Assembly: GCA_040357565.1 (NCBI GenBank)
Contig: JBDODJ010000006.1
Reading direction: 5' to 3' (one strand)
Origin: Cercozoa sp. M6MM
Taxonomy: Eukaryota; Protista; Endomyxa: Ascetosporea
DNA: 64,000 nucleotides
Shown: piece by piece, positions 1 through 58,791 of the stretch
How the letters are laid out: each line of letters starts with the position of its first letter
Position numbering within the stretch: position 1 is the first letter of the stretch
Translations under genes and position numbers: made by a program
Notes under the pieces: model-generated
What the model was told of the DNA's origin: nothing
The model's input: the letters and a program-made list of their open reading frames with translations, nothing else
Databases searched by the model: none

Positions 1-3000
1 CCCCCCCATAGACCTACCCATGTACCCTATGTGCAGTGGTGGGCGAGCTGCTGCGTCGTCGAAAGTTGCTCTGCGTGGACGACAAACCCAAGCAGTCCAA
101 ACACCAGGTCCGTTTGTACACACCTAACCCTTCCATATGATCCGTACAACGACCTCCCCCTCTTTATACGCAGAGACAGATGACGCGTCGGCCCGGGAGT
201 TCCGTCACAGTGACGTCCTCGCGTGTCGAGCAGCTTGATGTATCCATTTTCTAGCTGTGTGTCCATTTGCACCGTCAGTTTGTCCCGTCCATTTGCACTG
301 TCCGTTTGTGCCACCCACCTGCAGAAACAGCGGCAAAAACAGCAGCGTCGGCAGAAGCAGCAGTCGCAAAAGCAGCGTCGGCAGCAAGAGCAGCAGCGAC
401 GCACTGCCGCCAGCGATGTAGCCTCTCTCTCCCCCACCTTAAACATGTCATTCCCCTGTCCAATGGACGGTTTATTTGTTGTATGTTTGTCCATTCTGTA
501 CCACACGTGGACAGGCTTTTTTTGACGGCGACGATGAGGCGCTGTCGCAGCATCTGCAGCAGCAGCGCGAGCTGCACAAGACCGAGCAGCGCATCGAGCA
601 GATTGAGCGTACCTTTTCCTGTGTATCTATGGTCACTGTGACTGGTCACTTTGCTCACTCTGAGTGGTCACTTGATCGCTATGTTCACTGGGTGGTCACG
701 CTGTGTGTGCAGAGACGCAGGCGCTGCGCGAGTTCTCGGCCGACAAGGGCGCCACTGTGAGTTTTATACATCTGAGTGCGGTGGCTGACTGAGGTGTGAC
801 TGACTGACTGACTGACTGACGTGTGACTGACAGATCAGACGCATCTACGGTGGCTCGGGCGCCATGCCGCAGAGTGGCCACGTGCCCTCCAAGGAGGCGG
901 GCAAACAGAAGGCCAAGGACGGCACCTGCATGTTTGAGGAGGCATTCGAACTCGAACTGCCCGAGTGTACTGATCTCTTTGTGACCACACTGATCGCCTC
1001 TATAATCACTGAGTGGTTTCTGAGTGGGCATGTGATCACCGAGTGATTGTTGTGCAGTTGCCGAACGCAGCGAGGACGCCGAGTACCTCGAGGTGCACCT
1101 GCCGCCACCGCCTCAGAGTGTGTCGCGCGAGGCTGGTCGCTGCCTCAGCGTTTCGGACAACCTGCCGGCTTGGGCTCGTACCTCCTCTCTTTCCTTCCTC
1201 GGACAGCCTTGTTCATGTCGAGGTACTGAGGTCCGAGGAGTAGATAGACTTACCTGTGTGCAGACAAACCCTTCGTCGACTTTGGCTGCACGGAGTTGAA
1301 CGCCATGCAGAGCACTGTAGCCTCCAGATTTTCCCTACTCTTTACGCCTCTTTCCCTCTCTCCACCCCCCCGTTGCCCACAGGTGTACAGCACGGCCTGG
1401 AAGACCAACCGAAACCTGCTCGTGTGCGCACCGACTGGTGGTACCTTTCCGCTATGATTGAGGTGTGATCACACGTGTGAGTAAGCCCACGTGTGAGTGA
1501 GTGACCACCTATGTAGCCGGTAAGACCAACGTCGCCATGCTCAGTGGTACTTTGTACAGCTTACGACCTACCTAGTAGTACCTCTAGGGGGTATGGACAC
1601 ACGTGTGTGTTGCAGTGCTCCGTGCCGTGTCGCAGAACCTGCAGCCTGGCACCAATCGGTACAACTGGACCGTGTGCATGTGTACAACTAGACCAACAAA
1701 CGGACTGTATGAATGTACGGTACAAATTGGACAGTGTGGCCTCGGCGGACACGTTCAAAATGGTCTACGTCGCACCGATGAAGGCACTGGCGCAAGAGGT
1801 GGTCGCCAAGTTCTCCAAGCGACTCAGCTCGCTCGGTACGTTGTACTGCCTTGTGTCCGTCTGGACCAATGTCCTTGTACCAATCTTGTATCGACTCAGG
1901 CATCGTGGTGCGCGAGTGCACTGGCGACGTGCAGCTCTCGCAGGCCGAGATGACTGGGTAGCACCACCTGACTGACTGAGTGACTACATGGGAGTGACCA
2001 CTGTGAATGACTGAGTGAGGAACCACTGTGACTGAGTGACCACGACTGAGTGATCACTGTGATTGAGTGACTGGACACGTGGACAGTGCGCACATGCTGG
2101 TGACGACGCCGGAGAAGTGGGACGTCGTCACGCGCAAGGGTATTGCTGCTATCCCCTGAGTGATCGCCTGACTGACCACCTGACTGACCACCTGACTAAC
2201 CACCTGAGTGAACTTTGCGAATCTGTGCAGGTGGGGAAAACGTTGACGCTGTGCAGTTGCTCATCATCGATGAAGGTAGCTTCTTTACCCCCTTTACCCC
2301 TTTACCCCTTTACCCCTTTACCCGCCCCTCACACCCCCATTCAGTGCACCTGCTGGCCGAGAGTCGCGGTGCCGTTATCGAAACGATCGTGGCACGCACG
2401 CAGCGTCTCGTCGAGACACAGCAGGTAGGCCACTCTCTGCGACCACGTGGGTGGGTGACCACCCTCCAGTCCCACGCTGTATGTGTTACCACGTGTGCAG
2501 ACGGTGAAACGTATCGTGGCACTGTCGGCTACGCTGCCGAACCGTGAACATGTGGCGCAGTTCCTCGGTACACCACTGGGACACACGTGCCTGGGTGGTG
2601 GACACGTGCCCACTGACTATTGTGACGGTGTTGGTATGACGGTGTCACGTGTGACCTACTGACAGGTGTGACGCACGAGGGTCTGTTCCACTTCGGTCCC
2701 GAGTATCGTCCCGTGCCGCTCGATATGCACTGTGAGTTTACCCCCTTGCCCCCCCCCCCCATTCACCCCCATCTTACCCCTTACCCGTGCAGTCATTGGT
2801 GTCAAGACCTCGCTCAAGGAGGTACATTGTATTGAATGGTAAAGGAGGCCACTGTTCCGATAGTTAAGGGTGCGTCTGTGTGTGTGTGTGTGTGTGTGTA
2901 GCGTCAGCGCAGCAAGGACCTCAAGGACGACAAGGCGTGGCACATCGCAAGACGCTCCGTGTGCGACGAGGAGAACCAGGTATGTCCTGCGTGCGTCTTG

Positions 3001-4355
3001 TCCGCCTACCATCTTGTCCTAGTGGACCGTCTGGATGGACCATCTGTACTGTGTCCAAATGTACCACTATCTGTACAGGTCATGATCTTTGTTCACTCGC
3101 GCAAGGAGACGACGCGCATCGCGCAGGATTTTGTGCGGCGGTACCTCTTACCCCCTCTTACCCTCCCTCCTCTTAATCCCTCTTACCCCCTTTGCCACCG
3201 CTTATCCCTTTAACCCCTTTTACCTCTTTTATACCCCAATAGAATGAGAGAACACGGTCTCGAGAAGGCCTTTTCCATCGGCGAGGGCAAGCACGTACCA
3301 ACTACTCAGTGGTCACTGTTGATCGATCACTGATCGATCACCGATCGCTGCATGTGCGCAGTTGCCACGTTTCGCCTCGCTGCGCAAGAAGATCGGCCGC
3401 GTCAAATCGACGGTGCTGCCGGCGCTCATGGAGTCCGGCGTCGCCATCCACCACGCCGGTACGCGTCTTTACCCCCCTCTTACACCCCCCCCCCTATTAC
3501 CCCCACCTGCAGGTCTGCACCGACAGGACCGTGGCGCTGTCGAAGAGGCCTTCGCCAAGGGCTACGTGCAGGTTTGCCCTTACCTCTTTAGCCGTTTATT
3601 CCGTTACCCCCCCCCCCACCCACCCCCGACCCCCGCGTAGGTGGTGGTGTGCACGGCGACACTGGCCTGGGGCGTCAATTTGCCAGCTCATACGGTACGT
3701 GTTGCCCTGCCTGGGCACAGACAGACCGTCTGAGGGTACAAATGGACCATGTGTGTGACAGGTGATCATCCACTCGACCGACGTGTACCTGAGCGATGCG
3801 CATCCGGCCGGGTGGTACGACCTCTCGATCCTCGACGTGCAGCAGATCTTTGGCCGCGCCGGCCGACCGCAGTTCGACACCTCCGGTACACACGGACTGT
3901 ACAGATGGACTACACAGATGGACTGTCCATACACACTGCGCGTCCTTAACTAAACACTATACACAGGCGAGGCATACCTGCTGACGCAGGTGCAGAAGGT
4001 CGGACACTTTGTTCAGCAGATGACGGCGGTAGTTTTACCCCCCCCCCCCCTACCCCTTTACTCCCCTTTACCCTCCCCCCGCCCGTGTGCAACAGGCACT
4101 GCCGTTGGAGAGTAGTTTCCTCAAGCAAGGTCATACGCTGGCCAACCACCTCAATGCCGAGGTATACCCCCCTCCATTTACTCCTTCTTAATTCCTTACC
4201 CCCTGCGTGCAGTTGGTACTGGGCACGGTGACCTCCATCGACGACGCCGTGCAGTGGCTCTCGTACACCTACCTGTACGTCCGACTGGTCGCCAATGGAC
4301 GGCACTACCAGGTGCTGTTGTTCCCCCTTATCCCTTGTTCCCGTTCACCCCCCTC

Positions 4356-4392
<37 letters not shown>

Positions 4393-7300
4393 ACACACAC
4401 AGGTGCCGCCGCACGAGATAGTGCACGACCCGTTGCTGCTGTCGTTCCGACGAAAACTTGTCGTCGACGCCATGCACACGCTGGTGCGTTTATACCCCCC
4501 CCCTCTTATCCCTCTGACCTCCCTAACTCTATGCAGATGAAGGCGCGCATGGCGCGGCTCGACACGAACTCGGGCGCGGTGCACTACACACGACTGGGCC
4601 GCGTGGCGGCGCACTACTACGTCGATGCCACCACCATCTTTGCCTGGCAGGAGACGTGAGTTCTTGCTCCCTTAACTAGGTCTATGCGTGTGATACATAT
4701 GGACATGTGTGTGTGTGTGTACTGAGTCTGTCTGTAATGTGGCTGTACACAGGTGGGACAAGATTCAGCAGGATCAGTTCCGTCACATGCGAATGCAGCG
4801 TGTACCCTTTACACCCAATTTTATTTCTTTACCCCCCTCAATTTGCCCCTTTACCTCCTTTACCCCTTACCCCCTCCATGTGTGTGCAGGGCGACTTTGA
4901 CCCGATGCAGCAGAAGCAGCGCAAATTGGCCGGCGTACCTTTTGCTCATATGGATCTGTCCATTTGTACAATTGTCCAGATGGACGGTGTGTCTGTAGAT
5001 TCCCGAAATCGAGGTCGATGAGCACGCGTGGCGCGACGAACTAATTCGTGCCGACTTCGCCGACGTGCTGCTCATGGTGCGTTTCAGTCTTGTCCCCTTT
5101 ACCCCACTTTTGGCCCCCCCCCCCCCCCGCACAGGTGGCCCAGGCCAGTGAGTTCCGGCAGCTGACGACGCGCGAAGACGAACTCGGCGAACTGGCCGAA
5201 CTGCAGCAGTTCTGCGCCTTCCCTGTAGCCACCTTTTTTGTTAGCCTTTACCCCCCCCCCCCCCCACTCCCTCTATTTCGTATTGTCTGTGTGTACACTC
5301 AGCTGCCGAAGTCAGTGTCGCTGAAGGATTCGAACTCGCTTGGAAAGACTTTCGTGCTGATGCAGGTGCCTTCTGTCCCTTTTGCCCCCATACGTCCTTT
5401 TGCCCCATACATCCTTTACCCTATCCCTTGCCCCCCCCCCCACAGGCACACATCGCCCGTCGTCGGCCGCGCAATTTCACATTGGTGAGCGACATGTACT
5501 ACGTCGCACAGAACGGTACTTCGCCCAGTTTTATTCATACCCCCCCCCCCCTGTTGGTGTATGTGTGAGTGTGTGTGTGTGCGTGCACGCAGGCACGCGT
5601 CTGATGCGAGCGCTGCTGGAGATCATGCTGCGCGACCCGTCGCGCCGCTTTGTGTGCTGTGCCGATAAGGTCCGTTTTTGTGCAGTCTAATGCTGCTGCA
5701 CAACAATCTGAACTCATCTGGCAGGTACTCACGCTGTGCCAGGCGCTCGAGCAGCAGTGTTTCCCTCACGAGTAACGCTCCCTTTATCTTTGTTTTGTTT
5801 TGTTGTTTGTCAGTTTGCTGAAATAATACAAACCTATGTTCTGCCAGGCACCCACTGGCGCAACTCGTGCACAACCCGCAGCAGCAACAAAATCGCGGTA
5901 TTTCATACTTTAAGCTGAGTGCGCGTTTGCACGGTTCAGTTGTACCGCTGCTGGGCAGGCAAATCCCTGTCGCGAGAAGTGTTTTCCAAGATCGTTCGTG
6001 CCGACTTGTCTGTGCGCGACTTGGTACTCTTGCAGCTGTTTTTTCTTTTGTACAGTACTTTGACTGTGTATTGATATTTACAGTTGGGCGATCGCACCTA
6101 CGAGGATGCACGCATTGAGCAGGCAGCTCAATTTACGTAGCTTTCAGTTTTTTTATCTGTTGTAAGCCTCGGTGGAGTGGGATTGGATGCAGCAACAAGC
6201 GAGCTGCACGTGACTTGATGCGATACGTGGTACTGTTGCTCTCTCTTCGCTTGTCAGTTTTGACTCAAATGGTTCGCTGCTCGCACAGACGCGCGGAATC
6301 GGACCGAACGAGATTGGTCGGCGCATGCGAATGGGCGGTAAAAGTCAACTGCAAACTGAAGCTGCTCTAGAACAACCAAAACTGTGTGTGGACGTGTGTG
6401 CTTGCAGGCTGGGGTGATGAAGTGCTAAAGTTCGCCAAGTATCTGCCGTTTTGCCGCGTCCATGCTACGGTTTGTCTTTCTTTTTTAAACCGCTCCCTTT
6501 AGTTTAAAATCCGAGCACAGGCCATGCCGGTGACGCGTGAGATCATGCAGTGGCGTGTCTTGCTGCGGCCGGACTTTAACTGGTACGGACGGAAGCTGTC
6601 TCAAGAGTTATGGGCTGACTAATTGGTACTGTGTTCTTTCGCAGGCGAGATGGTGCCCATGCGACGCCGATGTGGCTCTTCCTGCGCGACGGTGATACGC
6701 AGCAGTTGCTCTACTTTGGTACACTTGGATCATCTCTGGTTTACAGAATAAGGTCTATGTACAAGTGAACCATACGCGTGGACAGAGTGCGTGGTGCTGC
6801 ACCGCGACCGCACGATGCAGATGCGGCGCGAGACTGTCAATGCACTGCACGACGATGATACCATCGCCTACGGTACTTTACCCCTCCTGCCCCCTACCCT
6901 ACCCTTTATCCCCTCTGTCCCTTTACCTCCCCCCCCCCCCCCCAGATGAGGAGTCACTAGAGGCTGGTGCCGAAGTGCGAAAGTTCTTCACGGCCATTCC
7001 CAAGGGTTCGTCTCTTCTCGTGTACCTTGTGTGTCCATGCGTATGTACATCTGTACGGTACAGATGGACTGCCTGCGTCGTACGAAGTGTCCATCGTGTC
7101 CGACCGCTACCTGGGTGGTACATCCCGGACAGAGAAATGTAGCCACCTCCTGTACATTCCTGTGTGTCTGCAGTCAAGGACAGCTGCTACGTCGACTGTT
7201 CGCACATTCGCCTGCCGCACGTGGATTCGGCGGTACCTTTTTGGACTATTTGTTATTGTTGTACGAATGGACGGGTCGTTTGTACCTCTCTTTGATTCAC

Positions 7301-10300
7301 CAAGGGCACGGACACGGCCTTGTTGCCGCTGCCGCCGCTGCCGCGCACGGCACTCAAGTCGAGTCGCCTGCTGGAGGCCAACATCATCAAGTGGGACTTC
7401 TTGAATCCCATCCAGGTACACCCCTTCCTTAACTGTACTACATTTGGTCCAGTTGTACCATCTGTGTTACTCTACCTGCCGTTCCAACTGTGCAGACGCA
7501 AGTGTTTCACCCGGTGTACCACGGCGAGGACAACATTCTGTTGTGTGCGCCCACTGGTTCCGGTACAGATGGACCGATATCTTGCACGAGGGATGGCTAC
7601 AGTAATTAAGGGTGTGCCGTCTGTACACAGGTAAAACGACGATTGCCGAACTCGCCATCATCCGTGCGGTGGCCAAGGGCGTAACTCCGACCTTGTCTTT
7701 TTTTTTGCAGATACAAGATTGAGGGAGCGTTGTTGTTTGCACACATAGATGAAAGCGGTATACGTGGCGCCGCTCAAGGCACTGGCACGTGAGCGCATCA
7801 CTGACTGGCGGTGCGTTTCTCCTGCTCACTCACTCGACCTGATTGATCTCTGACTGAGTGACTGACTGTCGATATCGGTTGTGAGTGCAGCGAAAAGTTC
7901 GGTCGACTCGGGTGGAACACGACGCTGCTAACGGTAGCGTTTCCTGTCCTCTCTGACAGTGATTCCTTGGACTGATCTGATTGATTACTTTGATTGATCA
8001 CTGTGACGGTGGTCACTCTGACTGATCACTGACACCGTCATCAATCAACGATCGTGCTTTCTTAGGGAGAGTCGACACCGTCGAGTGAGCGACTGCGACG
8101 CTCCGACGTTGTTGTGGCCACGCCCGAGAAGGTAACCCTACATCCTGCCCTTGCCCCCTTCTTTACCGCCCTTGTGTGCGCAGTGGGACGTTGTGTCGCG
8201 TGCCTGGAAGTGCCGCGACTTCGTGCGTCAGGTCGCTCTGATCGTCATTGATGAGGTAGGGGGCTAAGAGGGTGTAAGGAGGTGGGCGGGGGGGGGGTAA
8301 GTTTGTGTGTGTGTCAATAGGTGCATCTGCTCGGCACTGAACGCGGCGCGGTGCTGGAGGCCATCATCTCGCGCGTGCGCTACATGGAACGCTCCCTTAA
8401 TAGGTACAGGCCCTGTCCCTACTGTACTGGTACACTGGTACCTGTGTGAGCAGGAAGACGCGTCTGCTGGCGCTGTCGACGGCACTGGCCAACGCCGGCG
8501 ATTTGGCCGACTGGCTCGGTAGATTTTGACCTGTGCAAGTGGGTGTGTCCAAGTGGACCGGTCGACTGTGTGTTTGTTTAAGGCGTGGACCGACAGCGAC
8601 ACTTGTTCAACTTCCACCCGTCGCTGCGACCGGTGCCTGTGGAGGTGCACGTCAGTGGCTACCCGGGTCGGGCCTACTGTACGTCCTGTTTGTCCCTGCA
8701 TGTCCGCCGTCCATTTGTACCATACTGTATGGACATACAGGCCCGCGTATGGCACTCATGAACAAGCCGACCTACCTGGCCATCAAGTACTCTGACCCCT
8801 GCCCCTACTCCTACCCTACCCTACCCTACTCCTACCCTACCCTGCTCCTACCCTACCCCTGCCCCTACCCTACCCCTGCCCCTACCCTACCCCNNNNNNN
8901 NNNCCCCCCCCCTTACCCCCCCCCCCCCAGGGAGCACTCTCCGACAAAACCGACGCTTGTGTTCGTGTCCTCACGACGACAGGTATAGATCGCTACTTTA
9001 ACTAAATGCGCCCATTTGTACCACTACTGTACTTGGACAATTTTGTGTTTTATAGACTCGTCTGACAGCGATGGATCTCATTGCATACCGTCAACTCAAC
9101 ATTGACTCGGTATCCACCTTCTCGGATTACTTAGAGGTGAGCTCCGAATCTGTACTTAATTAAGGGTGCGCCCGAGTGGCTGCACCTTTCGCAAGCCGAC
9201 GTGGCCGGCGTCTTGCAGCGGTTTGTTGTTTCTCGCTGTGTTTTTTCGCGGTGTTTTTCGCATCCGAGCGTTTGTAGAATTCGTGACGCGGACTTACGAC
9301 ACTGCATTGGACATGGCGTCGGTACAGATGGACACAAATTAAGGGGGACTATAGTACCTGCAGGTACAAATGGACTGTCTTGGGACAGGCATGCACCACG
9401 CCGGTCTGTCGCGAAGTGATCGCAGTATTGTGGAGGAATTGTTCGGTGCCGGACTGATCAAGGTGCTGGTGTCGACGGCCACGCTGGCCTGGGGAGTCAA
9501 CCTACCAGCGCACCTCGTGGTGGTCAAGGGCACCGAGTACTTTGACCCTACGGTCGGTGGCTACGTTGACTACTCGGTCACGGACATCCTGCAGGTATCG
9601 TACCTAGACCACATACCCTATTATAGACTAAGATCTGACTTTGCGTTTCTCTCAGATGATGGGTCGTGCTGGTCGACCTGGCATGGACGACGAAGCTGTC
9701 GTACTGTTCGATCACTGCAAGCAAGTTCTTTGTACATTCTCATTGATCCCTACAGGCATGTGTCATGGTGCACGAGCCCAAGAAGGATTTTGTTCGACAG
9801 GTTTCTCTTTCTCTTTGTATTTGAGTATTTCGTATTTTGTTTTATTTTGCTTATTTTAGTTCCTGTATTCGCCTTTCCCTGTGGAGTCGTCGCTTCACAA
9901 GAACGAGCACCTGGCGTGCCATCTGCTCGCCGAGGTGACTACTTTTTTAATTTCTTAAAACAGGTTGCTTTTTCAAACAAGATTGTTCAAACAAGGTTGT
10001 TTTTGCTAACTAATCGTAGATCGCGAGTGAAACGATCACAACTCGGGCTGATGCACTGCAATACCTGAGTCACAGCTTCCTGTTGCGTCGTGTGGCAGCC
10101 AATCCGGCCTACTATGGCGTGCCAGGCGTGAGCGCGCATCTGGCCACGGTAGCTTTCACTTTCGCTTTCACTTTCGCTTTTCTCACTTTCAGCTGTGTCT
10201 ATAATTTCCTTGAATACGTGAGTTTGCTTTGCGAACGCAGAGTCACGACAACGAAAATGCCGTCGAAGTGACCGAAGAGGACGAACATGCGCACGTGCGT

Positions 10301-11069
10301 TTTTGGCTTTTGCTTTGACATAGAAGAAACACGTGTTAACTTGTTTTGTGCTTTTCTACAGGTGAGCGCGTATCTGCAGCAATTGATTCGAGATGCACTG
10401 GATGCACTCACACTCGCTCAGTGCATCCGAGTGACTGGTACATCATTTTCCTGTGTGTCTGCTTTAGATCTTGTGCATCTATGTTCCTTTGTGCAGACAA
10501 TGACATCGAAGCGACCGAGTACGGTCAGGTGGCCGCCAAGTACTACGTGAGTCACCGCTCGGTGTCGCTGCTGAAGCGTGCCCTGGCACCTCGGCAGGCA
10601 CAGTGCACGATGCCTCACCTCGCCTGCACTCTGGTACATTAACGTACATAATTGTAGTGCTGTTGTGACGAGAGTGCTGTACATACACAGGTGCGCACGC
10701 AAGAGTTCGCGCAGACGCCGGTGCGGCACAGCGAGGACGGACTCAACGCCGATCTTGTGCGCAGTGAGGTAGTCTCTCTGCTTTTCCTATGTGTGTTGAC
10801 GTACCTTCTTGTATGCATTCACGTGTCACGCAGAAGCAACGTTTCCGTATCGAGTTTCCGCCCTTCCTGCAGCCAGCTTCGCCTGCTCACAAGTACAGCG
10901 TCTGTGTGTCTGTGTGTCTGTATATATAGGCGTATCCATGTCGATGCATGGTTGTTGCTGTAGAACTTTGCTGCTGATCCAGTCGCACCTGGCGCTCAAC
11001 TGCGATAGTGAACAGTGAGTTTCTGACTTGCCTGGATATATATATATATATATGTATATGTATATATCT

Positions 11070-11120
<51 letters not shown>

Positions 11121-11130
11121 NNNNNNNNNN

Positions 11131-11198
<68 letters not shown>

Positions 11199-11676
11199 GA
11201 GAGTCACGATGCCGATGCGCGACTACTTCTCCGACCGTGCCAACGTGCTGGCGCAGGTTCCGCGTGTGCTGCAGGCATGCGTTGACGTTGCCGTCTGTCT
11301 GGGCAGGTATCCATGTGTGTCTCCTTCTCATATACTATCCAAGCATCAACGTGTATGTGTGTGTGTGTGTGTGTGCCTGTGTGCAGGAGCGATGCCGTGC
11401 ACGCGTGCATCGACTTGTACCAGCAGTGCATGCAGGTACCTCGCGGTTCTGTTAGATGGATCACCCCTCCCAAACATACATACCATGTGCGGACAGGCCT
11501 CGTGGGACATGCCGCATGCCATGGTGCGCCGACTGCCGCACCTGCTGCACGCGCACGACGACGACGGCCGGCAGCGCGACCCGTCGCAGAACTACCAGTC
11601 GCAGCAGCAGCGAGACAAAGCGCCTGTCATCTGCGGCCTCAAGGACACGCACACTGAGGTGTCGCTTTCCCTTGTT

Positions 11677-11712
<36 letters not shown>

Positions 11713-12463
11713 GTTTAATGACATGTACAACGCAGGGCACATCGGTGACTGCTTGCAAGGCACGTGAGGAGCGTTTCCGCCGCTTCGTCCAGGCGGCGGA
11801 GCAGTCGATCGGCAAGGATGTGATGGGCACGATGCTCAAGGGCAGCAAGTCGCGCCAACTGGAGCAACTCCTGCGCCAGCACCTGCTGCTTAACGATGCG
11901 CAGGTGCACGACGTCACTGCGGTGCTGCAGTGTCTGCCGCGTGTCTCTGTACGCGGCAAGGTCACCGTTAACACCGCCGACGACCTCGCGCTGAGTGTAA
12001 ACGTCTCCAGCAAGACTGCCAGGAAACCGGCCGAGGCCAAGAAGGCGGCCAGTGCGCCCATCAAGCAGGTTCTCTCGAACGGCGGTGTCTGGACGCCGGC
12101 CTGGCGCATGGGCGCGCCGCTCTCCTTCTTTCTTGTCGTCTCAGTTGGCAACACTCTCCTTCAGCTGCGTCGACTCAACCTGGGACGGTACAGCTCTGTC
12201 TGAGTTTCACTAATCTTATATATATAGATCTATATATCTATATACATGTATGTGAGGGCATAGATGTATTGTGTATGTTGAGCAGCAAACCTGCCACGGT
12301 CACGGTGCACGTGCCGCAGGAACTCCGCGGACAACGCGTGCAGGTCTCGGTGCGTCCCGACGCCTACATGCAGCTTGACCGACGAACGCACGTGTCGCTA
12401 CCGGTGGAACCAGCGGAGACCAAGCCGGACGCTGCTGCCTCTTCGACGACCCGAGGTGACTGA
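1..12463 (+). CDS. ASCC3: Activating signal cointegrator 1 complex subunit 3 / Slh1-type tandem Ski2-like helicase (5' end outside window; 81 GT-AG introns in window)
   Basis: Hand-spliced exons give two helicase cassettes: LNAMQS..NLLVCAPTGAGKT, VYVAPMKALAQE, LVTTPEKWD, IIDEVH, LSATLPN, HHAGL, TATLAWGVNLPAH and QIFGRAGRPQFD; then [39 protein letters not shown] and [13 protein letters not shown] (ASCC3/Slh1 rather than Brr2 signature), QMMGRAGRP, plus Sec63-like regions. Stop TGA at 12461-12463. Confidence 0.93.
8787..8930 (+). repeat. (CCCTA)n-like degenerate repeat filling an ASCC3 intron; contains a 10-N gap
   Basis: Directly visible ctaccctaccctaccctactcctacc... between donor GTACTC at 8787 and acceptor CCAG at 8930. 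Confidence 0.9.
11074..11196 (+). repeat. (GT)n microsatellite in an ASCC3 intron, with an assembly gap
   Basis: Direct inspection; source of the spurious VCVC/HTHT ORFs. Confidence 0.97.
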
Positions 12464-13402: not shown

Positions 13403-16400
13403 TTACATGTACATCGACATGCTGCTGTTCTGGCCGCTGGTGCCGTCGGTCTTCTCGACCTCCTCCTCGGCAGCGAGCCTGTGCAGAACAAAAGGTATGC
13501 ATTCTTTCATCTCGAATCGAGCAAAGCAGAGTGTACGAGAGGTCCTTCATCTTAATGATGGCATCATCGCCCTGACGCAGCGCAGCACGCGAGGCAGCAC
13601 GCAGCACGGCCGAACGGATCTACATGGGAAGGGGATAAAGGGCATTGCAAGCAGGGAAGCAGGGTGTGATGATACCTGACCGCCCGTGAGTGCCTGCGCG
13701 CGGCCGAGTCGCTCGAAGTCGACGCTCTTGTCGAGCGGCGCCTGCGCCGGGATCATCTGGCGCCACAGCTTGGCGCGCAGACCGGCCTCGGGCGTGCCGA
13801 AGTGCACGACAAACTTGATGCGGCGGAAGAAGGCGCGATCGATGGCGTCGGCGTTGTTGCACGTGAGGATCACCACGCCCGGGTAGCGTTCCACGTGGTA
13901 CAGCAGCGTTGCAATGTCGATGTTGGCATATCGGTCCGTGCTCGTCGTCGTCGCCGTGCGCGACGAGAACAGTCCCTCGGCCTCGTCAAACACCAGCACC
14001 GGCGACTCGTGCAGACCTGACAAAAACAACAGAGTTAATTTCTCCTTTCGCGCGGACGTGCAAAAACACAACAAATACAAAACACAGCAAATTTACCAGT
14101 GCCACTGCCGCTTGACGTGGCCGTGCTGGCCTGCTCGAACAGCGACTCGATGTTCTTGGACGACTCGCCAACCCACTGCACACACCGACACACAAAAAGT
14201 AAACCTGTTAGAGCAAAAGAAGTCCAATATTGGGTGGGCGGTTAGCTACCTTGGACAGCAGCTCGGCGCAGTTGACAATCTTGAGCGGCCGGCCAATCTC
14301 GAAGGCAATGGCCTGCGCCGCCATTGACTTGCCCGTACCGGGCGGACCGGCGAAAAGTGCCGACGCGCCCTGGTTGTTGCGCAGCGACTCGCCAAAGCCC
14401 CACTGCGCGAACAGCACGCTGCGCGCCTTCTCAAAGTTCACGACGTCGCGAAGCACGTTCATGTGCTACCATCCCACAGCCAACCATATCTATGCACCCT
14501 CTGTATACCAGGTTAAGTGTATGTGGATACCTTGTCGGGCAGCACGAGCTTATCGAGGCCGCTCTGTCACACACATGTTAGTCAAGTACATGGGAGTGTG
14601 GAAAGCCAAGGGTGCTACATCCGGGACGGAGCGTCGCTCGAACGAGGCCATACTGATGCGGCCCTTGAGTTGCAGCGTGGCACCGCGGCACATGTCCTCC
14701 TGCGTCACTACAATGTTCTTGGCGTCGCGCGACACGGCGAACGACAGCGCCGACAGCAGCGCGTTTTTGATAAAACCGCCCGTCAGCTCGAACTTCTACA
14801 GGGGGCACACAGGGGGCAGGGGGTATAGGGGGAGGTATGGGGTATAAGTGGAGGTATAGGAAGGGATATGGGTCAACACACCTTGGCCAGGAACTCGAGG
14901 TCGACATCGTCGGCCAGCTGCAGCTTGGGCGGCATCAGCGTCTTCCAGATCTGCTTGCGCAGCAGATGGTCCGGTTGGCTACACGCACAAGCCAAGGTAC
15001 AGATGAACCCGGGGGAGGGGGTAAGACACGAGGCTACCGGAACTGCACGGACAGGGTGATACGGCGGTGCATGGCCTCATCCAGGTCGGCCGGTCGGTTG
15101 GTGGCCATGATAATGAGGCCGTCGTGCCGCTCGATCTCGGTGAGCAGGAGGTTCACGAGGCCGCCGTTGCGCTCGCGGTCACCAAACATGCTCTCGCACT
15201 CGTCAAAGAAGAGCACGGCGTCGTTGATCTTGGCCTCGCGGAAGATAAAGCGCAGGTTCTCGTCGCCCCTATATAATACATATATATATATATATAATTA
15301 TAGAGATGTAGTTGGAGGGGGTACATCTGGCCCAGCGACGGGAAGTTGATAAGCAGCACGCGCTTCTTGATGGCCGTGGCCACGGCGTTGGCGATCATGG
15401 TCTTGCCAGTGCCCGACTCGCCGTAGAACAACAGGCACACGCCGGCGCCGTACTGCACCACGTCGTCGAAGCCAAGCTCCTTGCGCGCACGGATGAACTT
15501 GTCAAAGTTGCGCACCGTGCCTACCAACCAACAGGAGGGTACCGAGGCGGCTAGGGGGAGGGGCAGCATGCCAGCCTACCGATAATCATGTCCTTCTGCG
15601 CCGCCGGCAGAATCACGTTCTCCACGTCCACATTCGGCGTGTACCTGCACCAACAGAAAACAGATACCGCACCCCTTAATCACACGGGCACACCCTAACC
15701 AAGCGCACCCTTATCAAAGATAGATTTGTTACAGATGCGAGCCGTCAATGATCTCGCCGAACTCGACCTCAAGACCGCAGCAGTACTCCAACACACGCCT
15801 GGGGGGGGGGGGGGTAAAACGGTGGAAAGAGGTAAGAAGGGGTCGTACCGATCCACGCGGATGGCGGCCTCGATGAGGTCACTCTCGAAGCCGAGCGCAT
15901 TCACCGACACGAAGCCCTCCTTCACCAGCGTGGAGCTCTTGTAGAAGAAGCGGCGCATCGCAATCTGCTGCGCCAGGTCCTTGCTCAGCAACTCGAGCAT
16001 GTGGCCCACGTTGCCACGGAAGCGCACCTACAAGGGGGTAAGAGGAAGGTAAAGGGGGGCGATGGGGGGTGGTAAAATTCTAGCATACAGTGTTCGGCAT
16101 CAGCGTGTTGCCCAGCAAAATCAGCAGCACGTCACGCTCCGTGTCGCAACTGTACAAAAGGTGGGGTAAGGGGAGGGGTGAAAGGGGGTAAGAGGGTAAG
16201 AAACGTACAGGCTGCGCTCGCGGCAGAGCTTCTCGAGACGAGGCACGAAGCCCTTCTTCTGTGCATACAGTACAGTACCTTGTTTCGATCAAATTCGCCT
16301 GTTCATGGGGTTTTTTTAAATTGAACTTACGCCATCCTTCTCAGAGAGAGCAAGGCGACGCTCAATCTTCTTCTTGCCGACACGGACCTGCCATCACACA

Positions 16401-17768
16401 AGGGGTAAACAACGGGTGGGGGGGGGGCAAGCTAATCGACTCACCTTGGTCTCCAACTCGCGAATGCGCTGAGCCGTTCGCGGGTCCATCGCCGACGGAT
16501 CGTGCGCGTACGAGTTCCTTCACATGGGGGGGGGGGTAAAGTCAGGGGGTAAAGTCAGGGTGGGTGGAATGGGGGTAAAACAGAACCCACTCCAGCTCGT
16601 GTCCGTCAATCTGATTGCGCACGACTTGGAACCACAACTCGAGGTACTCCAGGTCGTTTTTAAAGGGCCTACAGGGGGATATAGGGGTAGGGCGAGGTGG
16701 GTAAACCGAGTATACTTAAGCGCGTCCTCCTCCTCGTCCGAGTCGACCTCTTCCTCGTCGTCGTCGTCGAGGTCGCGTCCGGCAAAGGCGCGCGTCATGA
16801 TCGAGTCGGCCTTCATGCTGGCGAACAGGTCCTTGTCGCTGCCGCCGACCGAGCCGCCGGCGGCCTCCAGTGCCACCAGCATGTGCTCCTTCTCCACGTC
16901 CGACAGTTCGCTCAGCTGCGCCGACACGTCCATACCGGCGGCCTCTGCAGCGGCCACCAGGGCCACATCCAGCTCGCTCGGACCCTGTGCCTCCTCAGCG
17001 GCCTCTGCAGCCTCGGCATCCACTGTCTCGTCGGCTTCCTCGGGTCCGTTGTCCTCCTCGACCTCGGTTTCGACTGGCGTCTCCACCACATCAAACGAGT
17101 CCTCCGAGTTCTCCTACCAAAGGCATAGGCTTATATGGTTCTAGCTGTATAGGATACGGGTACCTTGGCCTCCGGGGCCTCCGAAGCAGCCTGTGCAGCC
17201 GCCTTGTCGTTCTTCTTGAGGCGACGCTCGTAGGCATCGTCTGCAGGCAAGGGGTAACGGGGGGGGGGTGGGGTAGGGTAGGGTAGGTGGTAAGGGGTAG
17301 GGGAAGGTAGGGTAGGGGTATAGGGTACCCTCCTCGAGGATGCCCGAGATAGGCGGCACATCAAGCTTCATGAGCGCGTCCTGGTTGAGTCGCAGCTTGT
17401 ACAGCATGAGCCAGATGGCCTCCTCGATGTTCGGGTTCGAGTACCTGCACGTTTAAGAGCAGACACATGTACCATAGACACACGTATCAGACAGACGGAC
17501 AGGACGTACATCAAATAGCCTCGCGAGTTGAGGTCGCTCAGGATGCCCGACTTAACGTGCTACGGGAGGGGTGAGGGTAAAGGGGTAAGGGGTAGGGGGT
17601 AAAAGCACAGGCATACCGGACGGTCGGGGTCGAGGAACTTGAGCACATGCGAGGTCGACTTGGAGAAGAGTGCGCACAGCGTGTGCAGCATGGCACCGCG
17701 TGTTTGCACCGAGGCGCCACAGCCTGCCCCACCACAACACATTAGTCAGTCTCTTCTTTACCTAGTGT

Positions 17769-17825
<57 letters not shown>

Positions 17826-18601
17826 GGAGAGAAAGAGGGAGAGAAAGAGGGAGGAAGAGAGAAAGAGGGAGGAAGAGAGAAAGAGGGAGGGAGAGAGAAA
17901 GAGGGAGAGAGAGAAAGAGGGAGGGAGAGAGAAAGAGGGAGAGAGAGAGAGAAAGGAACACACCACTAAGGAAGGGCGAGTTGAGGAACAGGATGGCCTC
18001 GAAGAAATCCTTCTCGTAGTCGCACAGGTCCATCGGCTCGCGGTGCAGCAGGCGCAGCAGACGCGGCGCTGGCGGCACCGGCTGCTCCTCCTCTGTCTCG
18101 GCCGAGAAGACGTCGTCGATGGCACGGTGCTTGGTCAGACGTGCCGTGATGAAAGTCGTCAGCGCCGCGTGTGCCGTCTCGCACGCATGCGTCAGCTTCT
18201 TCTGCGTCTCGTGACTCTGGATCTCACTCTCGGCTTGACTGTTCATCATGTTCGTCATGCGCGTTGACGCCAAGTTCAGCGGCGCGTACACGAAGCACAT
18301 TCGAGCCACGATGATCTCCACATACTCCGGGTTCGTGAACGGTTTGGCCTCCTCACCCTGCAGGCACACACATTACCCCCCCTCACTACACATCAAGCAG
18401 CACAAGGCAGCAACTCACCGACTTAAAGAAGTCAAGCGCCTCCCGAACGGGGCCCACTACGTTCGGACGGAAGAACGTCTGATCAACAACAACAAAGAAA
18501 GCATTCACGCGACACAACACGACAAGAAAAAAGAAAAAAAAACAAAACACCGTCAGGACATCGCACGCCTTTTGCAGAGCCTCTGTGTCAAACTGGGCCA
18601 T
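13403..18601 (-). CDS. Tandem AAA+ ATPase (two AAA modules, winged-helix-like N-terminal repeats, acidic linker)
   Basis: Spliced: LLFYGESGTGKT / VLFFDECE / MATNRPADLDEAMHRR, then QWGF..SALFAGPPGTGKS / LLSKWVGESSKN / VLVFDEAEGLFSSR..TDRYAN / TCNNADAIDRAFFRRIKF / LTGGQI. ATG at 18601, TAA at 13403-13405. Confidence 0.9.
17772..17952. repeat. Compound (AG)n / AGAGGG purine tract in an AAA ATPase intron
   Basis: Direct inspection; explains the ERER/SLSL ORFs. Confidence 0.95.
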
Positions 18602-28470: not shown

Positions 28471-29073
28471 CGATCGGGAAGAATTAAATGCTAGTCATTG
28501 TTGCGCAACAACTTCCGCTTCGCTTGAGTCTGTGGTACAGGAAATACATCGTTGGTTTCTTAGTACACTGAACTAACCAGCTGATGTGGTTCGGTTTAGT
28601 TAGGTCGGGGTTGCCAGTTGTTCGAGGGAATTCAACTGGCAAAACTGAACTAAACTACGTTTCACAAAGTTGTTTCACAGTACTGCAGTGACACTACAGT
28701 GTATATTCGATTGTATCCTTGCGTTGTACTCCGTGACAGACAGGACTGCAGCTGCAGTATATTGTATGCTTACGTACTATAGATTCAGCAAAAAACATAG
28801 TAGTGCACCGTTAGTCGGCGTAATTATTCGCGCGTCTGTAGTCGCGAAAGGGAAGACCGGCCCTGGGGTGCAAGCAACGCTTTCAAGATGAGCATACGAA
28901 AGACGCCCGTTCAGTTGAACTTGGGCGATTCCTTCGAAAGCAGTTGGGACAGTAAGTGACGATTGTGTCGTCGGAGGTACTCGCGAACAATGCTGCCAAT
29001 GCCACACAACATATTATACAACAAGTGCGAAGCACACAACATCGACAACAACAAAAGCAAGAAGCGATTGAAT

Positions 29074-42670: not shown

Positions 42671-43759
42671 ATGCCCAAGTACGCTGCCAAAAGCTGCATT
42701 TTGTTCTTGTTGTGTGTGAGATGTTCTTTGTATTGTGTGTGTGTGTGTTTTTTTTGCTAGGTTTTACTGCGACATTTGCGATAAGTTCATGGTGCACGGT
42801 TCCTACGGTGGCCGTAAGGAGCACATTCGAGGCAGACGGCACCAGGAGAACGTGCGTCAGTACTACGGCATGTTCGTGGACCCGCTTCTGAACGGCCTGA
42901 TTCCGATCCTGCCTGGCGCCGTGCGTGCTGGTGCTTTTTCTTTGTGTTCAGATGGAACTATTGCTGAGTGTTGTGTATGTTGGTTTTACAGGCTACCGTG
43001 TCGTGCCGCTGCCGAAGCTGCTGAACATGCCGCTGATTGCGGGTGGCTACCAGTACAACCCGAACATGCCGTCGGCGCCGCTGTCGGTACCCTTTGTGCT
43101 GGTGATTTCGATGCTTTGGCACATTGAAAATTGAGTGCTGCTGGTAGGAGGAGCTGCCCAAACACTTTGTGGACAAGGCCGAGGACGAGTTCGTGGCACC
43201 GTACCTGCAGCGACAGCAGGAGCAGCAGCAGAAGAGTCGCGAGCTGCGACGACAGGTGCCTCCTTGTGTTCTAGTTTCCCGTGTGTGTATATGCGTGTTT
43301 GAGGGTTCCGCAGGAGATGCACATGAGCAACCGACAGCAGCACGGACAGCAGCCTCCGCAGCACGGACAGCTTCCGCATGGACAGCACCCGCACCCGCAG
43401 CATCAGCCGCAGCACCACCAGCAGTACCAGCAAGCGCCGCCGCAGCACTACCAGCAGCCACCGCCGCAGCACCACCAGCATCACCAGCAGCAGCACCAGT
43501 ACCAACCGCCGCAGCGCCAGCAGCAGTACCAGCAGCAACAGCAGCACCAGCAGCAGTACCAACCGCCGCAGCACCAGCAGCAGTACCAACCGCCGCAGCA
43601 CCAGCAGCAGCGCGAGCAGCAAGATGCCCAGGTACACTACCTGTTACGTCTTGTGTCACCACAACTTGTGTCACCACAACTTGCACTCTGTATCTCTTGC
43701 AGGTGCGCAACATCGCTCGCCCGCCGCCGCCGATGCCGGCTCCTTCTGCCCAGCATTAG
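42671..43759 (+). CDS. SNRPC: U1 snRNP protein C (matrin-type zinc finger) with Q/H/P/Y-rich low-complexity tail
   Basis: MPK|FYCDICDKFMVHGSYGGRKEHIRGRRHQENVRQYY aligns without gaps to the U1C N-terminus (C6, C9, H24, H30; ENV..YY). TAG ends at 43759. Confidence 0.88.
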
Positions 43760-46062: not shown

Positions 46063-47387
46063 TTAGTTAAGGTGCGTGTTGAAGAAATCGAGGGTGCGCG
46101 CCTTGGCGATAGCGCACTGCTCGGCGTTGTAGTTCGGGCCCTCCTGCATATCATATCAAATCAGGGTCAAGCAGCATTGATCAAGCAGCATTAATCAAGC
46201 AGCATTCGCAGGAGGGAGTGAGGCCGATTGTGTAGGTACCTGGCGGCAGAACGCGTGCTCACAACCCGGGTAGGTGTGCAACGTGAACCTGCAACACAGG
46301 AGGTTACCAATGCAGGTGAAGCAAACTACCGACGAAAGAAACAGCACTGCACGTTGGCCTCCTGCATGGCTTGCGTCAGCTTGCCAACGTCGGCCGGCGA
46401 CGAAAAGCCCTCGAGCGAATCGGCATCACCAAAGTTCAGCAACAGCGGGCACTTGACACCTGGGAAGCAGGGGAGATAACCTAAGGGACAAAACTTTCTG
46501 AGGCACTAAGAGGTACCCTGCTTGGCAGGGTCGGCCAGCGCAGCGCCCGGGATGCCGTAGAACACGGAGCTGCAAGGGGAGGCAGGTGTGAATGGTTAGT
46601 ATCAATTAAGTAGGAATTCTAAGGCTGGCACACGGAGACATACCAGGCATCGGCCTCGTCGATCAACACAGATGAGGCGAGCGTGAGAGCGCCGCCCATG
46701 CAAAAGCCACTACACAAGACGCATACACCAGCAGGTGAGGTAGGGGGTAGAGGCGATAACGCACACGATGCCGACCTTGGTGCAGCCGTTGTTTTTGAGG
46801 TAGCGCACAGCACCTGCACACACGCAAAGACGAGGGTGTACTGAAAGACAGATGGGAAAGGAAAGAACTATACCACGAATGTCCTCAATTGCACCCGGCC
46901 AGTCCAGGCCGTCCATAAGATGGCCCTACATGCCAGGCAATGTATTGTCAACACATGCATAACTGTGCAGGAATTACAGCCTCCTCATGGTCGATCGCCT
47001 CCTTGCCTCTGCCACACAGAGAGGAAAGATCAAAACGGGAGCACCCTTGAAGAAAAAGAAAAAACCGGTACCGGTACAGATCAGGAACGAGCGTCTTGAA
47101 CTCGTCAGTAGGGAACCAGCGCGTCGCCAAATCCTTGATCTGCAGAAATGCGCTCACTTCAATATCAGACACGCATTCTGATAAAACTTTGGGAACTTGC
47201 CTACCTCCTGGTTGGCACCCCACCACTCCTGGATCACAACGACGCCCTTGGTCGACTCACCTGCACAAGTAACCGACGTTTCGAAAACAAGCATTCCAAA
47301 AAGAAAAAAGATTGCAAAACACGCACCTTCGAGGTAACCGACGCCCTTGCCGGCTGCGTTGGCAGACTCGTACTCAATTCGGACCAT
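46063..47387 (-). CDS. Dienelactone hydrolase / carboxymethylenebutenolidase family
   Basis: GVVVIQEWWG, LVPDLYRG, LDWPGAIEDI, VGFCMGG nucleophile motif, FYGIP, FGDAD, YPGCEHAF. ATG at 47387, TAA at 46063-46065. Confidence 0.93.
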
Positions 47388-56114: not shown

Positions 56115-58791
56115 CTAGTACTCCAACGACACATCGTCGGAGTCGGAGTCGGAGTCGGACGAGTCGGAGTCGTCGCGCATCCTGTCACGCGCATCGGCCA
56201 ACGCTTTGCCGATTGCTGTTGCTGATGTACTGTGGTCACCTGATCGATCGTCTGATTGATCATCTGATCGCTCAGTGGGTTGGTCACTCTTGGCGGTGCC
56301 ACTGGCGGCGTCGACCCAGTGCTGCATGCGCTTCTTCATGACGGCGCGGATGCGCGCAATGTCGCTCTTGTGCAGCCAGCCCGTTGCCTGAGGGATGGGG
56401 GGGGGGGGTAAAAGGGAGGGTAACATGGGGGTAAAGGGGGCAAGGAAGGCCGCACCTTGCTGCATGTGTTGGTCGGTTTCGTCTCTTGCAGAACCTTGCG
56501 CACTTCCTCACTCGCATCAGCCAGGTCACACAGCTGCAGCAAGGGGCAAAGGGCGAAAGGAGGTAAGAAGATTAACAGAATAACAGGGAGTGAAGGATAA
56601 CAGGGGTAAAAGGAGGTAACAGGGGGGGGGTAAGAAAGGGGGCAAAACCTGGTAGTTCGCGCCCAAGCGACGCGGCGGTACAGCGAAGCGAAAATCTTCG
56701 ATTTGCTCAAAGTTCTTGTCGTCTGCTCAAACGCTTGTTTCCCCGTTTTACCCCCCCCCCCTTTTTTGCCCACTTTAACCCCTTACCGACATGAGAAGCC
56801 TCTTCGTCGGCAGTTTTGACACTGACGCCGCTCTGCCGCTGCTCGGGTCGACCACTCTTGCCCGGAATACCTGTGCCGCCAATAAACCTTTTTCGTATTT
56901 GTCCAGTGTTCACCCAAAGGGGAGAGAGAGGGGAGTTACTACCTGCGAAACGCATCGACTGATCGGCGATTCGCAGTGCCACGCCGTGTCTCCTCTAGAG
57001 GGAGTAAACAGAGGGGCTTATACGGGGGTAAACAGGGGTAGGGTGAGGGAGTAAACAGGGGGGGGGGGGGTAAAAAGTACTTGTAGTCTAAAGTCGATGA
57101 GCTGGGTCTCGCGAGATTCGGGCTGCTTCCGCGGGTCGTAGCCGAGTCGAATCCAGACCTGCCGCCACGGACCCGCCTGGAACCGGTAGGCTGCCTGCAC
57201 ACATACCCCTTTGTACCCCCCCCCCTACTCCCAGAAGAGTGTACCCTAGGCAGCAAGGCCAGCACAGCAGAGGCACGTGCACGTGCGATCTTGAGTGGCC
57301 ACTTGAGTGACTTTGGCTGGAGAAAGAGAGAGCACGTGCAAATGGGACCAGTGGACACGTGCACACCACCACAGGGCAGACCAGTGTACATCCGAAACCG
57401 CGGTGAATTCGGGCGACATATGCGCCAACAGGGCGTTCTTGCTCCAGACGGCCTGGGGTTAAATGGGGATAAACAGGGGTAAACGGGGGAGGGGGGGGGG
57501 GGGGAAAAAGCGTGAGAAACGGGGGTGGAGCCGGGGGACCGGCCGGGGGGGGGGGTAAACGGGGGGGGGGGGTAAACGGAGGGGTAAAGAAATACCCTCT
57601 GTTGGAACAGCTTCTTCAGTTTCTGCTCCAATTCGGAACATTCGTCGTCCTGCCAAACACCAAAAGTATGGCGACAAAAATCCAGAAGAATACACACGGA
57701 GGAAGGCTCACTTCGGGCAGAGCTTCCAACGGCTCTGGCGGCTTGGTAGGTACTCTATAATTAATCTATAATTAAGGGGGTAGAAGGGGTAAGAGAGTAA
57801 CAAAGGGTAAGAAACGTCATACGACTCGGCGTCGAAACTGACATACGCGCGGACACGTCGCAGCTGTTTTTGTTGCTTCGGCTGTTTTTCTGTCAGCATG
57901 GGCGGGGGATAAAAGGGTAAAAGGGGGTAAAAAGGGTAAAATGATAGGTGTAAAGAAGTAGAGGAAGTAAAAAGGGATAACGGGGGGAGGGGGAGGGGCA
58001 ACAACGTTAAAAGGGGGGTATACCAGCGGTAGTTGTAGGTGCGTGCCGCCTCTTCTCGTCAGCCAGCGAGGGTCGGAAACGGTAATCGCGAACGTAGTCG
58101 CACCGCGACAACACCAGCGGCAACACTGGCACTTTTACCTGTGGGTTAAAAGGGTAAAAACGGTAAGGGAGTAAAAGGAGTAAGGGGGTAAAGTACCTGT
58201 CGTATCTCCTCAAGCGACAAAAAGCGCCGATCGTCTTTTTTGAGCGGCTTGAGCATGTCAGCTCGCATCTGGAAATCCGCCAGTCCGCCAAACGACGTCA
58301 CTTTTCGCACGTGGCCCACCACCTGCACAACTCAACTCAACTCAACTCAAAGCAACTCAACTCAAAGCAACTCAACTCAAAGCAACTCAAAGCAACTCGA
58401 CTCAAAGCAACTCAACTCAAAGCACCTCACTCGAAGCGACATGCGCGTCGGAGCCGTCTCGCCTTCTGCGAATGCGCATTTTGACCACTGCCATGTTCGT
58501 CGAACTCTGCGTCACGCCAAACAGCGGATGCGAGAAACGCGCCTGTGGCCTCAGATTGATCTCCAGCGGCAGATTGCCTGAATGGCAGCAAAAAGCAACT
58601 CTAACTAAGTCATAAAGTCTTTGAAGCAAGTCACACGCTAACGCACCATTTGAGTGTGAGCGTGCAATTCGTTGACGACCGCCCATCAGTGCAATGGCGC
58701 GCTCGGAATTCTCGACAATGCCCGGGAACACCACGACACAAACATTTTTTGACTGGTCACCCAGTCCTTGCAGAACTACTTCTTTGTCCAT
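56115..58791 (-). CDS. GTF3C5: TFIIIC subunit 5 (tau95/Tfc1/Sfc1)
   Basis: VVFPGIVENSERAIALMGG, LRPQARFSHP, FGGLADFQ, LKKLFQQRPVWSKNAL, AYRFQAGPWRQVWIRLGYDPRK..QLIDFR, ATGWL, acidic tail DDSDSSDSDSDSDD. Confidence 0.92.
58323..58425 (-). repeat. Intron made of (TTGAG)/(TTGCTTTGAG) tandem units
   Basis: Plus strand aactcaactcaaagc repeated between acceptor at 58323 and donor at 58425. Confidence 0.93.

What the first reader, a model, noticed from the sequence alone, without database searches (positions are those of the whole stretch)
261..9375. A 12-mer, GTACA(A/G)ATGGAC, recurs in both orientations across unrelated ASCC3 introns
Seen: exact copies at 3736, 3899, 7058, 7563, 9322 and 9364 (forward) and at 4958 and 8709 (reverse complement). 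Near copies occur at 261, 287, 3040, 3914, 4977, 7261 and 9011. Twice it forms the donor itself (7563, 9322) and once it spans an acceptor (7058). Chance expectation in 9 kb is far below one. I saw only near matches elsewhere (14997, about 57336). The introns share no longer homology. Inference: a common template (decayed micro-element or introner terminus, templated repair insert) or an orientation-independent DNA-binding site. It carries both a GTAC donor and an ACAG acceptor, so it could seed new introns.
Basis: partly seen in the sequence, partly recalled or inferred. Interest (0 to 1): 0.72.

Follow-up and report, generated by a model that had tools for sequence, protein, structure and literature searches.

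The report
Repeat dialects overwrite an amoeba's introns
In a marine amoeba with densely packed introns, a 12-base near-palindrome recurs in both orientations in about twenty otherwise unrelated introns of one gene, likely because DNA repair copied a 13-base repeat unit into introns that already existed rather than because it creates new introns.

Summary
In detail: 8 exact copies, 29 copies with at most 2 mismatches in 108-9375, against 7 in the other 54.6 kb. It survives shuffles that keep 6-mers. Contigs of run X1 reproduce it. The window matches Cercozoa sp. M6MM (Lemnamoeba sinaloensis). The 12-mer is an imperfect dyad, GTMCA-NN-TGKAC (14 copies, spacer strictly 2). It is the core of a 13-base unit that forms short tandem arrays in both orientations, here and at a second single-copy locus. 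It is one of several intron 'dialects' (TGAC/GTGRYCAC, telomere-like TTACCC, TTAAGG) that fill patches of ASCC3; some recur in two other genes. Introner predictions fail: no terminal inverted repeats, no target duplications, no shared flanks, no extra intron density. Best reading (about 0.45): repair synthesis copies the unit into existing introns, slippage amplifies it, template switching reshapes it. The main rival (0.25) is a selected DNA-binding site. The mechanism is inferred, and the step that moves the unit between distant introns is unexplained.

The parts
37..12460 (+). ASCC3/SLH1 helicase gene, 5' end outside the window; 81 predicted GT-AG introns, 2113-codon open frame
   Evidence: predicted model, no RNA support seen
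108..5592 (.). first dialect patch (introns 1-37)
   Evidence: dialect vs ordinary introns switch 25 times vs 40.5 expected, p=0.0004
6719..9388 (.). second dialect patch (introns 47-66)
3736..3747 (+). exact 12-mer, intron 25
3886..3926 (+). 13-base tandem array, 3.2 units, starts at the donor of intron 26 and holds the exact copy at 3899; matched over 41 bases by a second locus
261..308 (-). 13-base tandem array, 3.7 units, reverse orientation, intron 2
4958..4969 (-). exact 12-mer, intron 33
4974..4985 (.). symmetric-arm variant; pairs with the 4958 copy in a hairpin (intron fold z -2.8)
7045..7056 (.). symmetric-arm variant, 13 bases before the 7058 copy
7058..7069 (+). exact 12-mer spanning the acceptor of intron 49
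7563..7574 (+). exact 12-mer forming the donor of intron 53, an intron position shared with distant locus L067
8709..8720 (-). exact 12-mer, intron 61
9322..9333 (+). exact 12-mer forming the donor of intron 66
9364..9375 (+). second exact 12-mer in intron 66, preceded by an AG (nested GT-AG-GT-AG look)
1659..1670 (+). AC-spacer variant forming the donor of intron 11
7447..7458 (-). the same AC-spacer variant, 5.8 kb away, intron 52
3053..3064 (.). variant with the spacer flipped relative to the arms, intron 20
8547..8558 (.). symmetric-arm variant, intron 60
1958..2086 (+). example of dialect A (TGAC/TGAG runs, GTG-NN-CAC dyad), intron 13
2276..2344 (+). example of dialect B (TTACCC-type, complement of a TAA[G]n-like word), intron 15
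57317..57389 (-). intron of the TFIIIC tau95 gene with a one-base-insertion copy of the motif
14997..15008 (+). one-mismatch copy in an intron of the AAA ATPase gene

Best explanation
The 12-mer is the core of a 13-base near-palindromic repeat unit that was likely copied by repair synthesis into introns that probably already existed, then likely amplified by slippage and likely reshaped by template switching, inside patches where several such words replace ordinary intron sequence. Shown: the unit, its dyad form, its arrays in both orientations, its patchiness, its absence from exon interiors, a second genomic locus. Inferred: break-prone patches, templated insertion, a GTAC landing pad. Unexplained: how the unit travels between introns kilobases apart.
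For: Period 13 recurs in 5 separate introns vs 1 at 12, 0 at 14 and 2 at 15. TRF finds 13-base arrays in opposite orientations. A second single-copy contig matches the 3886 array at 36 of 41 bases and runs on in the same style; that pattern has no other match in the window. The spacer is directional, AA or GA in 8 of 11 unlike-arm copies (p = 7e-6 against a free spacer), which points to descent from one template. 6 of 31 mismatches are the two transversions that make the arms symmetric (p = 0.007, post hoc), and one copy has a flipped spacer. Dialect introns are longer than ordinary ones (medians 67-91 vs 59). Exons hold fewer near-dyads than synonymous shuffles (1 vs 4.6 +/- 1.8). One carrier intron sits at a position shared with a distant eukaryote. 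Quasi-palindrome mutations and microhomology-bounded duplications arise during break repair in yeast (PMC12891019, passages).
Against: Similarity between motif introns does not fall with distance (rho 0.04, Mantel p 0.69), and neighbours share a dialect no more than by chance (14 vs 10.6, p = 0.13), so stepwise local copying is not seen. The best inter-intron match (introns 61/63) is within the null (20-32% of simulations). In yeast, microhomology jumps reach only about 80 bases ahead or 40 behind, and distant switches need about 200 bases of aligned homeology (PMC12891019). The right edge of the motif is sharp (16 of 23 falling to 6 of 23), which suits selection as well. No high-depth satellite of the unit was laid as a source. 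The 'old intron' point rests on one intron; 5 shared positions were seen against 1.47 expected, only 1 of them in a motif intron.
Confidence: 0.45

Rival explanations
1. A selected binding site: a dimeric or multi-finger DNA-binding protein reads GTMCA-NN-TGKAC, and selection keeps a cluster of sites in introns because the genome has almost no intergenic space. Slippage supplies new copies.
For: Strict 2-base spacer (counts 0,1,14,2,0 for spacers 0-4). Symmetric conservation: positions 4 and 12 invariant in 29 of 29, variation at 3/10 and 6/7. Sharp right edge. Star-like similarity with no distance decay and 48:46 orientation. CANNTG core at 11.6 per kb vs 5-6.5 elsewhere. The genome is 6% intergenic (PMC13746701 abstract).
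Against: 0 dyads in the window's intergenic stretches or in 54.6 kb beyond 9400. A directional spacer, a shared 13-base period and a shared variant with a remote array are not needed by a binding site. Other unrelated words fill the same patches. No binding protein was identified.
Confidence: 0.25
2. RNA-templated repair: telomerase or another reverse transcriptase heals breaks in these patches, adding telomere-like TAA[G]n words (dialects B, D) and short copies of a non-template part of its RNA (the 12-mer).
For: The published genome has TAA[G]n at some contig ends and internally (PMC13746701). TTAAGG/CCTTAA occurs in 6 of 21 motif introns vs 1 of 36 other patch introns (p = 0.008, post hoc). 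A trans template explains star-like similarity. Precedent: TERC-ITS in vertebrates (PMC8537989, abstract only).
Against: No fixed spacing or orientation between the motif and the TTAAGG word (read). Fixed ends are not expected from random RNA capture. Dialect B is C-rich on the sense strand in 23 of 25 introns while the motif is unbiased. No source RNA was found; 0 Rfam hits in the window.
Confidence: 0.12
3. Relic of an old introner or miniature transposon whose terminal or subterminal 12-base repeat outlived the rest of the element.
For: 5 of 29 copies start at intron base 1 (p = 1e-4 vs uniform). Intron 53 pairs its ends (z -2.2). Each intron mostly has one dialect. Ten unclassified TIR families are reported for the genome (PMC13746701).
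Against: No terminal inverted repeat excess, no target duplication excess, no reverse copies at acceptors. No shared flanks. No raised intron density. The one end-paired intron lies at a position shared with L067. The authors found no introner signal (PMC13746701 discussion).
Confidence: 0.1
4. Convergence: a strongly context-dependent mutation process, seeded by the shared GTAC donor word, reaches the same word independently in many introns, with no copying between them.
For: GTAC is the commonest donor (104 of 295). Ordinary introns also show excess short palindromes (86 vs 48). Dialects A and B are simple enough to converge.
Against: The 12-mer exceeds 6-mer-preserving shuffles of its own introns and is absent from the 214 modelled introns of 14 other genes that have the same donors.
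Confidence: 0.05

Closest known systems
Introners (Huff et al. 2016; Gozashti et al. 2022; known to me from recall and from their description in PMC12730881 and PMC13746701)
   Same: A shared sequence in many introns of an intron-dense protist that includes a donor word.
   Different: No terminal inverted repeats, no target duplication, no full-length homology, copies at any position and in either orientation.
Hypoxylaceae sister (stw)introns (PMC8469720; abstract and passages)
   Same: Introns sharing a short palindrome, with break repair proposed as the remodelling step.
   Different: Those are alignable over their length, with 45-55-base terminal repeats and new positions; here only 12-13 bases are shared.
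TERC-ITS: interstitial telomeric repeats with telomerase-RNA fragments (PMC8537989; abstract)
   Same: Telomere-like words and a second fixed sequence occur together at internal sites.
   Different: No fixed junction between the two, no known telomerase RNA to compare, far higher local density.
Repair-associated quasi-palindrome and duplication mutagenesis in budding yeast (PMC12891019; passages)
   Same: Arm symmetrisation, spacer flips and short tandem duplications within about 80 bases.
   Different: It does not move a 12-mer between distant templates that lack long homeology.
Degenerate minisatellites; clustered 12-base chromosome motifs such as the C. elegans MEX and pairing-centre motifs (recalled, no call)
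   Same: A short unit in small arrays and solo copies, both orientations, clustered in a region.
   Different: Here it is confined to 60-100-base introns and interleaved with other words intron by intron; no binding factor is known.

Membership tests
Introner | terminal inverted repeats at intron ends | tested here: not met
   mean match 4.84 vs null 4.78 of 10; 1 of 25 introns reaches 8
Introner | target-site duplication at the junctions | tested here: not met
   mean junction repeat 2.0 in 22 motif introns vs 2.13 in 39 ordinary ones
Introner | homology over most of the intron among copies | tested here: not met
   flank information near zero; best pair within null; little or no extra depth over 7141-7980 at 85%
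Introner | new intron positions | tested here: inconclusive
   1 of 22 motif introns at a position shared with a distant locus; the 78 loci are intron-poor
Degenerate minisatellite | head-to-tail units longer than 10 bases | tested here: met
   two TRF arrays of period 13 (3.7 and 3.2 units); period 13 in 5 introns; most copies are solo
Degenerate minisatellite | a high-copy source array | tested here: not met
   6 records laid on 3690-4025 at 80%; only one foreign contig, at single-copy depth; contigs can drop repeats
TERC-ITS | match to the telomerase RNA | not testable with these tools
   no genome held; no telomerase RNA known to me for this species
TERC-ITS | fragment joined to telomeric repeats in fixed order | tested here: inconclusive
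   co-occurrence 6 of 21 vs 1 of 36, but spacing and orientation vary
Dimeric transcription-factor site | dyad with fixed spacer | tested here: met
   14 at spacer 2, at most 2 at spacers 0-13
Dimeric transcription-factor site | protein binding and conservation between lineages | not testable with these tools
   no close relative found

The most novel reading that the evidence does not exclude
The dialect patches are chromosome-level elements written inside introns. In a genome that is 84% genes, origins, recombination hotspots or protein-loading sites have to live in introns, and the GTMCA-NN-TGKAC cluster is either the recognition code of such an element or the signature of an RNA-templated repair activity acting there.
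Probability: 0.2. Interest if true: 0.82.

Novelty: new variant of a known kind. Interest (0 to 1): 0.5.

Why it matters
The published genome of this species has 13 introns per gene and no introner signal, and its authors ask for another mechanism (PMC13746701). This finding does not supply an intron-gain mechanism. It does show that intron interiors here are not random spacers: patches of genes are rewritten in a few shared words, one of them a non-simple 12-mer. That gives a countable marker for asking how non-homologous introns exchange sequence, or whether introns host chromosome-level signals in very compact genomes. The test needs only public data.

Tried and rejected
Whole genome: none held, so no genome-wide k-mer count. 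No RNA holder was listed; this says nothing about expression. Runs X2 and X3 hold next to none of the stretch. A tandem-unit pattern found 0 stretches in metagenome contigs. The related-locus scan found no close relative (best 70% identity, 78 loci); those loci hold 1 dyad and no 12-mer in 964,665 bases. Earlier findings of the scan: three look-ups, nothing. Rfam: 0 matches. Rejected: local Markov composition; mis-assembly; a longer parent element; introns 61/63 as a direct copy; distance decay; copying from flanking exons (longest shared word 6.55 vs 6.27 bases); spill into synonymous sites; a general RNA structure (motif introns mean z -0.68; 2 of 7 picked introns below -2). The spliced self-alignment (80 of 80 introns agree) is partly circular, as the profile held the model itself. 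Resemblances to the U12 branch site, the m6A consensus, E-boxes, Reb1 sites and Harbinger ends are recalled and untested. Literature: searches found no description of this motif or of intron dialects; the library lacks most subscription papers. Four supplementary files of PMC13746701 hold neither half of the motif. The repeat library itself was not seen and may bear on the transposon-relic reading.
Full report
Observation. With one mismatch there are 19, of which 18 lie in 108-9375; with two there are 36, of which 29 lie below 9400. The count exceeds k-let-preserving shuffles up to k = 7 of the region, of the introns, and of the 23 introns already rich in TGGAC/GTCCA, and it passes a look-elsewhere control. 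Contigs of run X1 reproduce 7 of the 8 exact copies without a difference at single-copy depth. X1 may be the window's source, so this tests the assembly only.

Organism and gene. An exon of the neighbouring AAA ATPase is 100% identical to MHM6MM_000601 of Cercozoa sp. M6MM (Rhizaria), described as Lemnamoeba sinaloensis in PMC13746701 (I saw the abstract, passages, part of the results, the discussion, section 33 and a search of four supplements). That paper reports 53% GC, 13 introns per gene averaging 82 bases, TAA[G]n at some contig ends and inside contigs, and no introner signal. My gene finder reproduces the public AAA protein over 1111 residues with no gap. It gives 81 introns and a 2113-codon open frame for the host gene, whose best relatives are ASCC3/SLH1. 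The ASCC3 model is a prediction without RNA support.

What the motif is. It is an imperfect dyad, GT[AC]CA-NN-TG[GT]AC. There are 14 copies in 1659-9375 and 0 in the remaining 54.6 kb, and the spacer is strict (0, 1, 14, 2, 0 for spacers 0-4). Eleven copies have unlike arms and three have symmetric arms. One of the eleven has its spacer flipped. Anchoring on the central 6 bases alone recovers the outer bases in 13-17 of 23 sites and then drops to 6 of 23 at base 13, so the unit is 12 fixed bases plus one free base. TRF finds period-13 arrays at 261-308 (reverse) and 3886-3926 (forward). Near-copies lie 13 apart in 5 introns, against 1 at 12, 0 at 14 and 2 at 15; an overlapped period of 8 also occurs. 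Laying X1 at 80% on 3690-4025 brought one foreign contig of 235 bases at single-copy depth that matches the array at 36 of 41 bases and continues in the same style. It is not in the window. So the unit is not private to ASCC3, and no high-copy satellite was seen.

Context. By a crude word classifier the 81 introns split into 22 of the motif type (C), 9 of a TGAC/TGAG type (A, with its own dyad GTG-NN-CAC, 14 at spacer 2), 11 of a TTACCC type (B) and 39 others. Dialect introns cluster in 108-5592 and 6719-9388 (p = 0.0004) but alternate freely inside these patches (p = 0.13). B also fills introns of the AAA gene and the TFIIIC tau95 gene, and each of these has one near-copy of the motif. Only 3 of 214 introns in 14 other genes were classed C, none with an exact dyad. 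A and B follow the direction of transcription (21:1 for GACTGA, 68:6 for TTACCC); the motif does not (6:4). Exons are, if anything, depleted. Gene labels other than ASCC3, AAA and tau95 are recalled from the translations.

Against the introner and seeding ideas. There is no excess of terminal complementarity or junction repeats, and no reverse copy at an acceptor. Exons in the patches are not shorter. Among 91 intron positions mapped in 78 distant ASCC3/Brr2 loci, 5 match this gene (1.47 expected). One is intron 53, whose donor is an exact copy; locus L067 shares 2 of its 5 positions. That is a single case. On the other side, 5 of 29 copies start at base 1 of an intron (0.48 expected if uniform), and intron 53 pairs its ends. 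Because GTAC is the commonest donor (104 of 295), splicing both supplies and protects a third of the motif there, so donor enrichment is expected under every model.

Mechanism. The directional spacer, the shared period and the remote array point to descent from one template. The symmetrising transversions (6 of 31 mismatches, p = 0.007, post hoc) and the flipped spacer fit template switching. Yeast break repair makes such changes within about 80 bases (PMC12891019, passages). The same paper shows that distant switches need long homeology, and I see no distance decay, so the long-range step is open. A selected dyad site explains the star-like pattern and sharp edge but not the shared period. 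RNA-templated repair explains the company of telomere-like words (6 of 21 vs 1 of 36; precedent PMC8537989, abstract only) but has no source RNA. I give these 0.45, 0.25 and 0.12, and a transposon relic 0.10.

Comparison and novelty. It works like a dispersed degenerate minisatellite shaped by repair; it is not an introner on the features tested. PMC12730881 (passages) and PMC8469720 (abstract and passages) describe repeat-rich or palindrome-bearing introns, but not this pattern. PMC11069148 (passages) gives only intron counts. Ten searches of the held library (other hits seen as listings only) found no description of it. I rate it a new variant of a known kind, interest 0.5, rising to about 0.8 if the patches prove to be chromosome elements or sites of RNA-templated repair.

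Noticed in passing
window 28549-28574 and 56055-56080; weaker at 13108 (-) and 43925: A 26-base repeat (24 of 26 identical, E 0.05) lies just downstream of gene ends, among palindrome-rich intergenic DNA; possibly a small dispersed element or 3'-end signal.
   Followed up: partly
window 1958-2086, 609-712, 3295-3361, 7934-8065: Dialect A has its own dyad GTG-NN-CAC with a 2-base spacer (14 vs 0-1 at spacers 0, 1, 3; 4-7 at some even spacers) and the longest introns (median 91).
   Followed up: partly
window 8256-8320, 56723-56786: Two telomere-like (dialect B) introns are G-rich on the sense strand, against 23 that are C-rich.
   Followed up: partly
window 2864, 4669, 7606, 8394, 9160, 9339, 15645-15732: A fourth word, TTAAGGG followed by a GYG-like tail, occurs in both orientations; it lies in the exon end at 8394 and crosses the acceptor at 9160.
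   Followed up: partly
window 9322-9388: Intron 66 reads as GT..AG (42 bases) followed by GT..AG (25 bases), each starting with the motif; both parts are shorter than the shortest modelled ASCC3 or AAA intron (47).
   Followed up: no
window 37-9400: ASCC3 exons are very even in size (median 62 bases, CV 0.34), far from an exponential spread, which suggests a spacing rule for introns.
   Followed up: no
window 3637 and 3644: Run X1 contigs read T and C where the window has G, inside a poly-C intron end; possible errors in the window's assembly.
   Followed up: no
window 13410-18600 (-): The double-AAA ATPase with a winged-helix domain has few relatives (13 at E <= 1e-15), scattered over a sponge, green algae and metagenomes.
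   Followed up: no
window 58323-58425, 46144-46239, 43632-43702: Single introns in other genes carry private tandem units, showing that slippage within introns is general in this genome.
   Followed up: no
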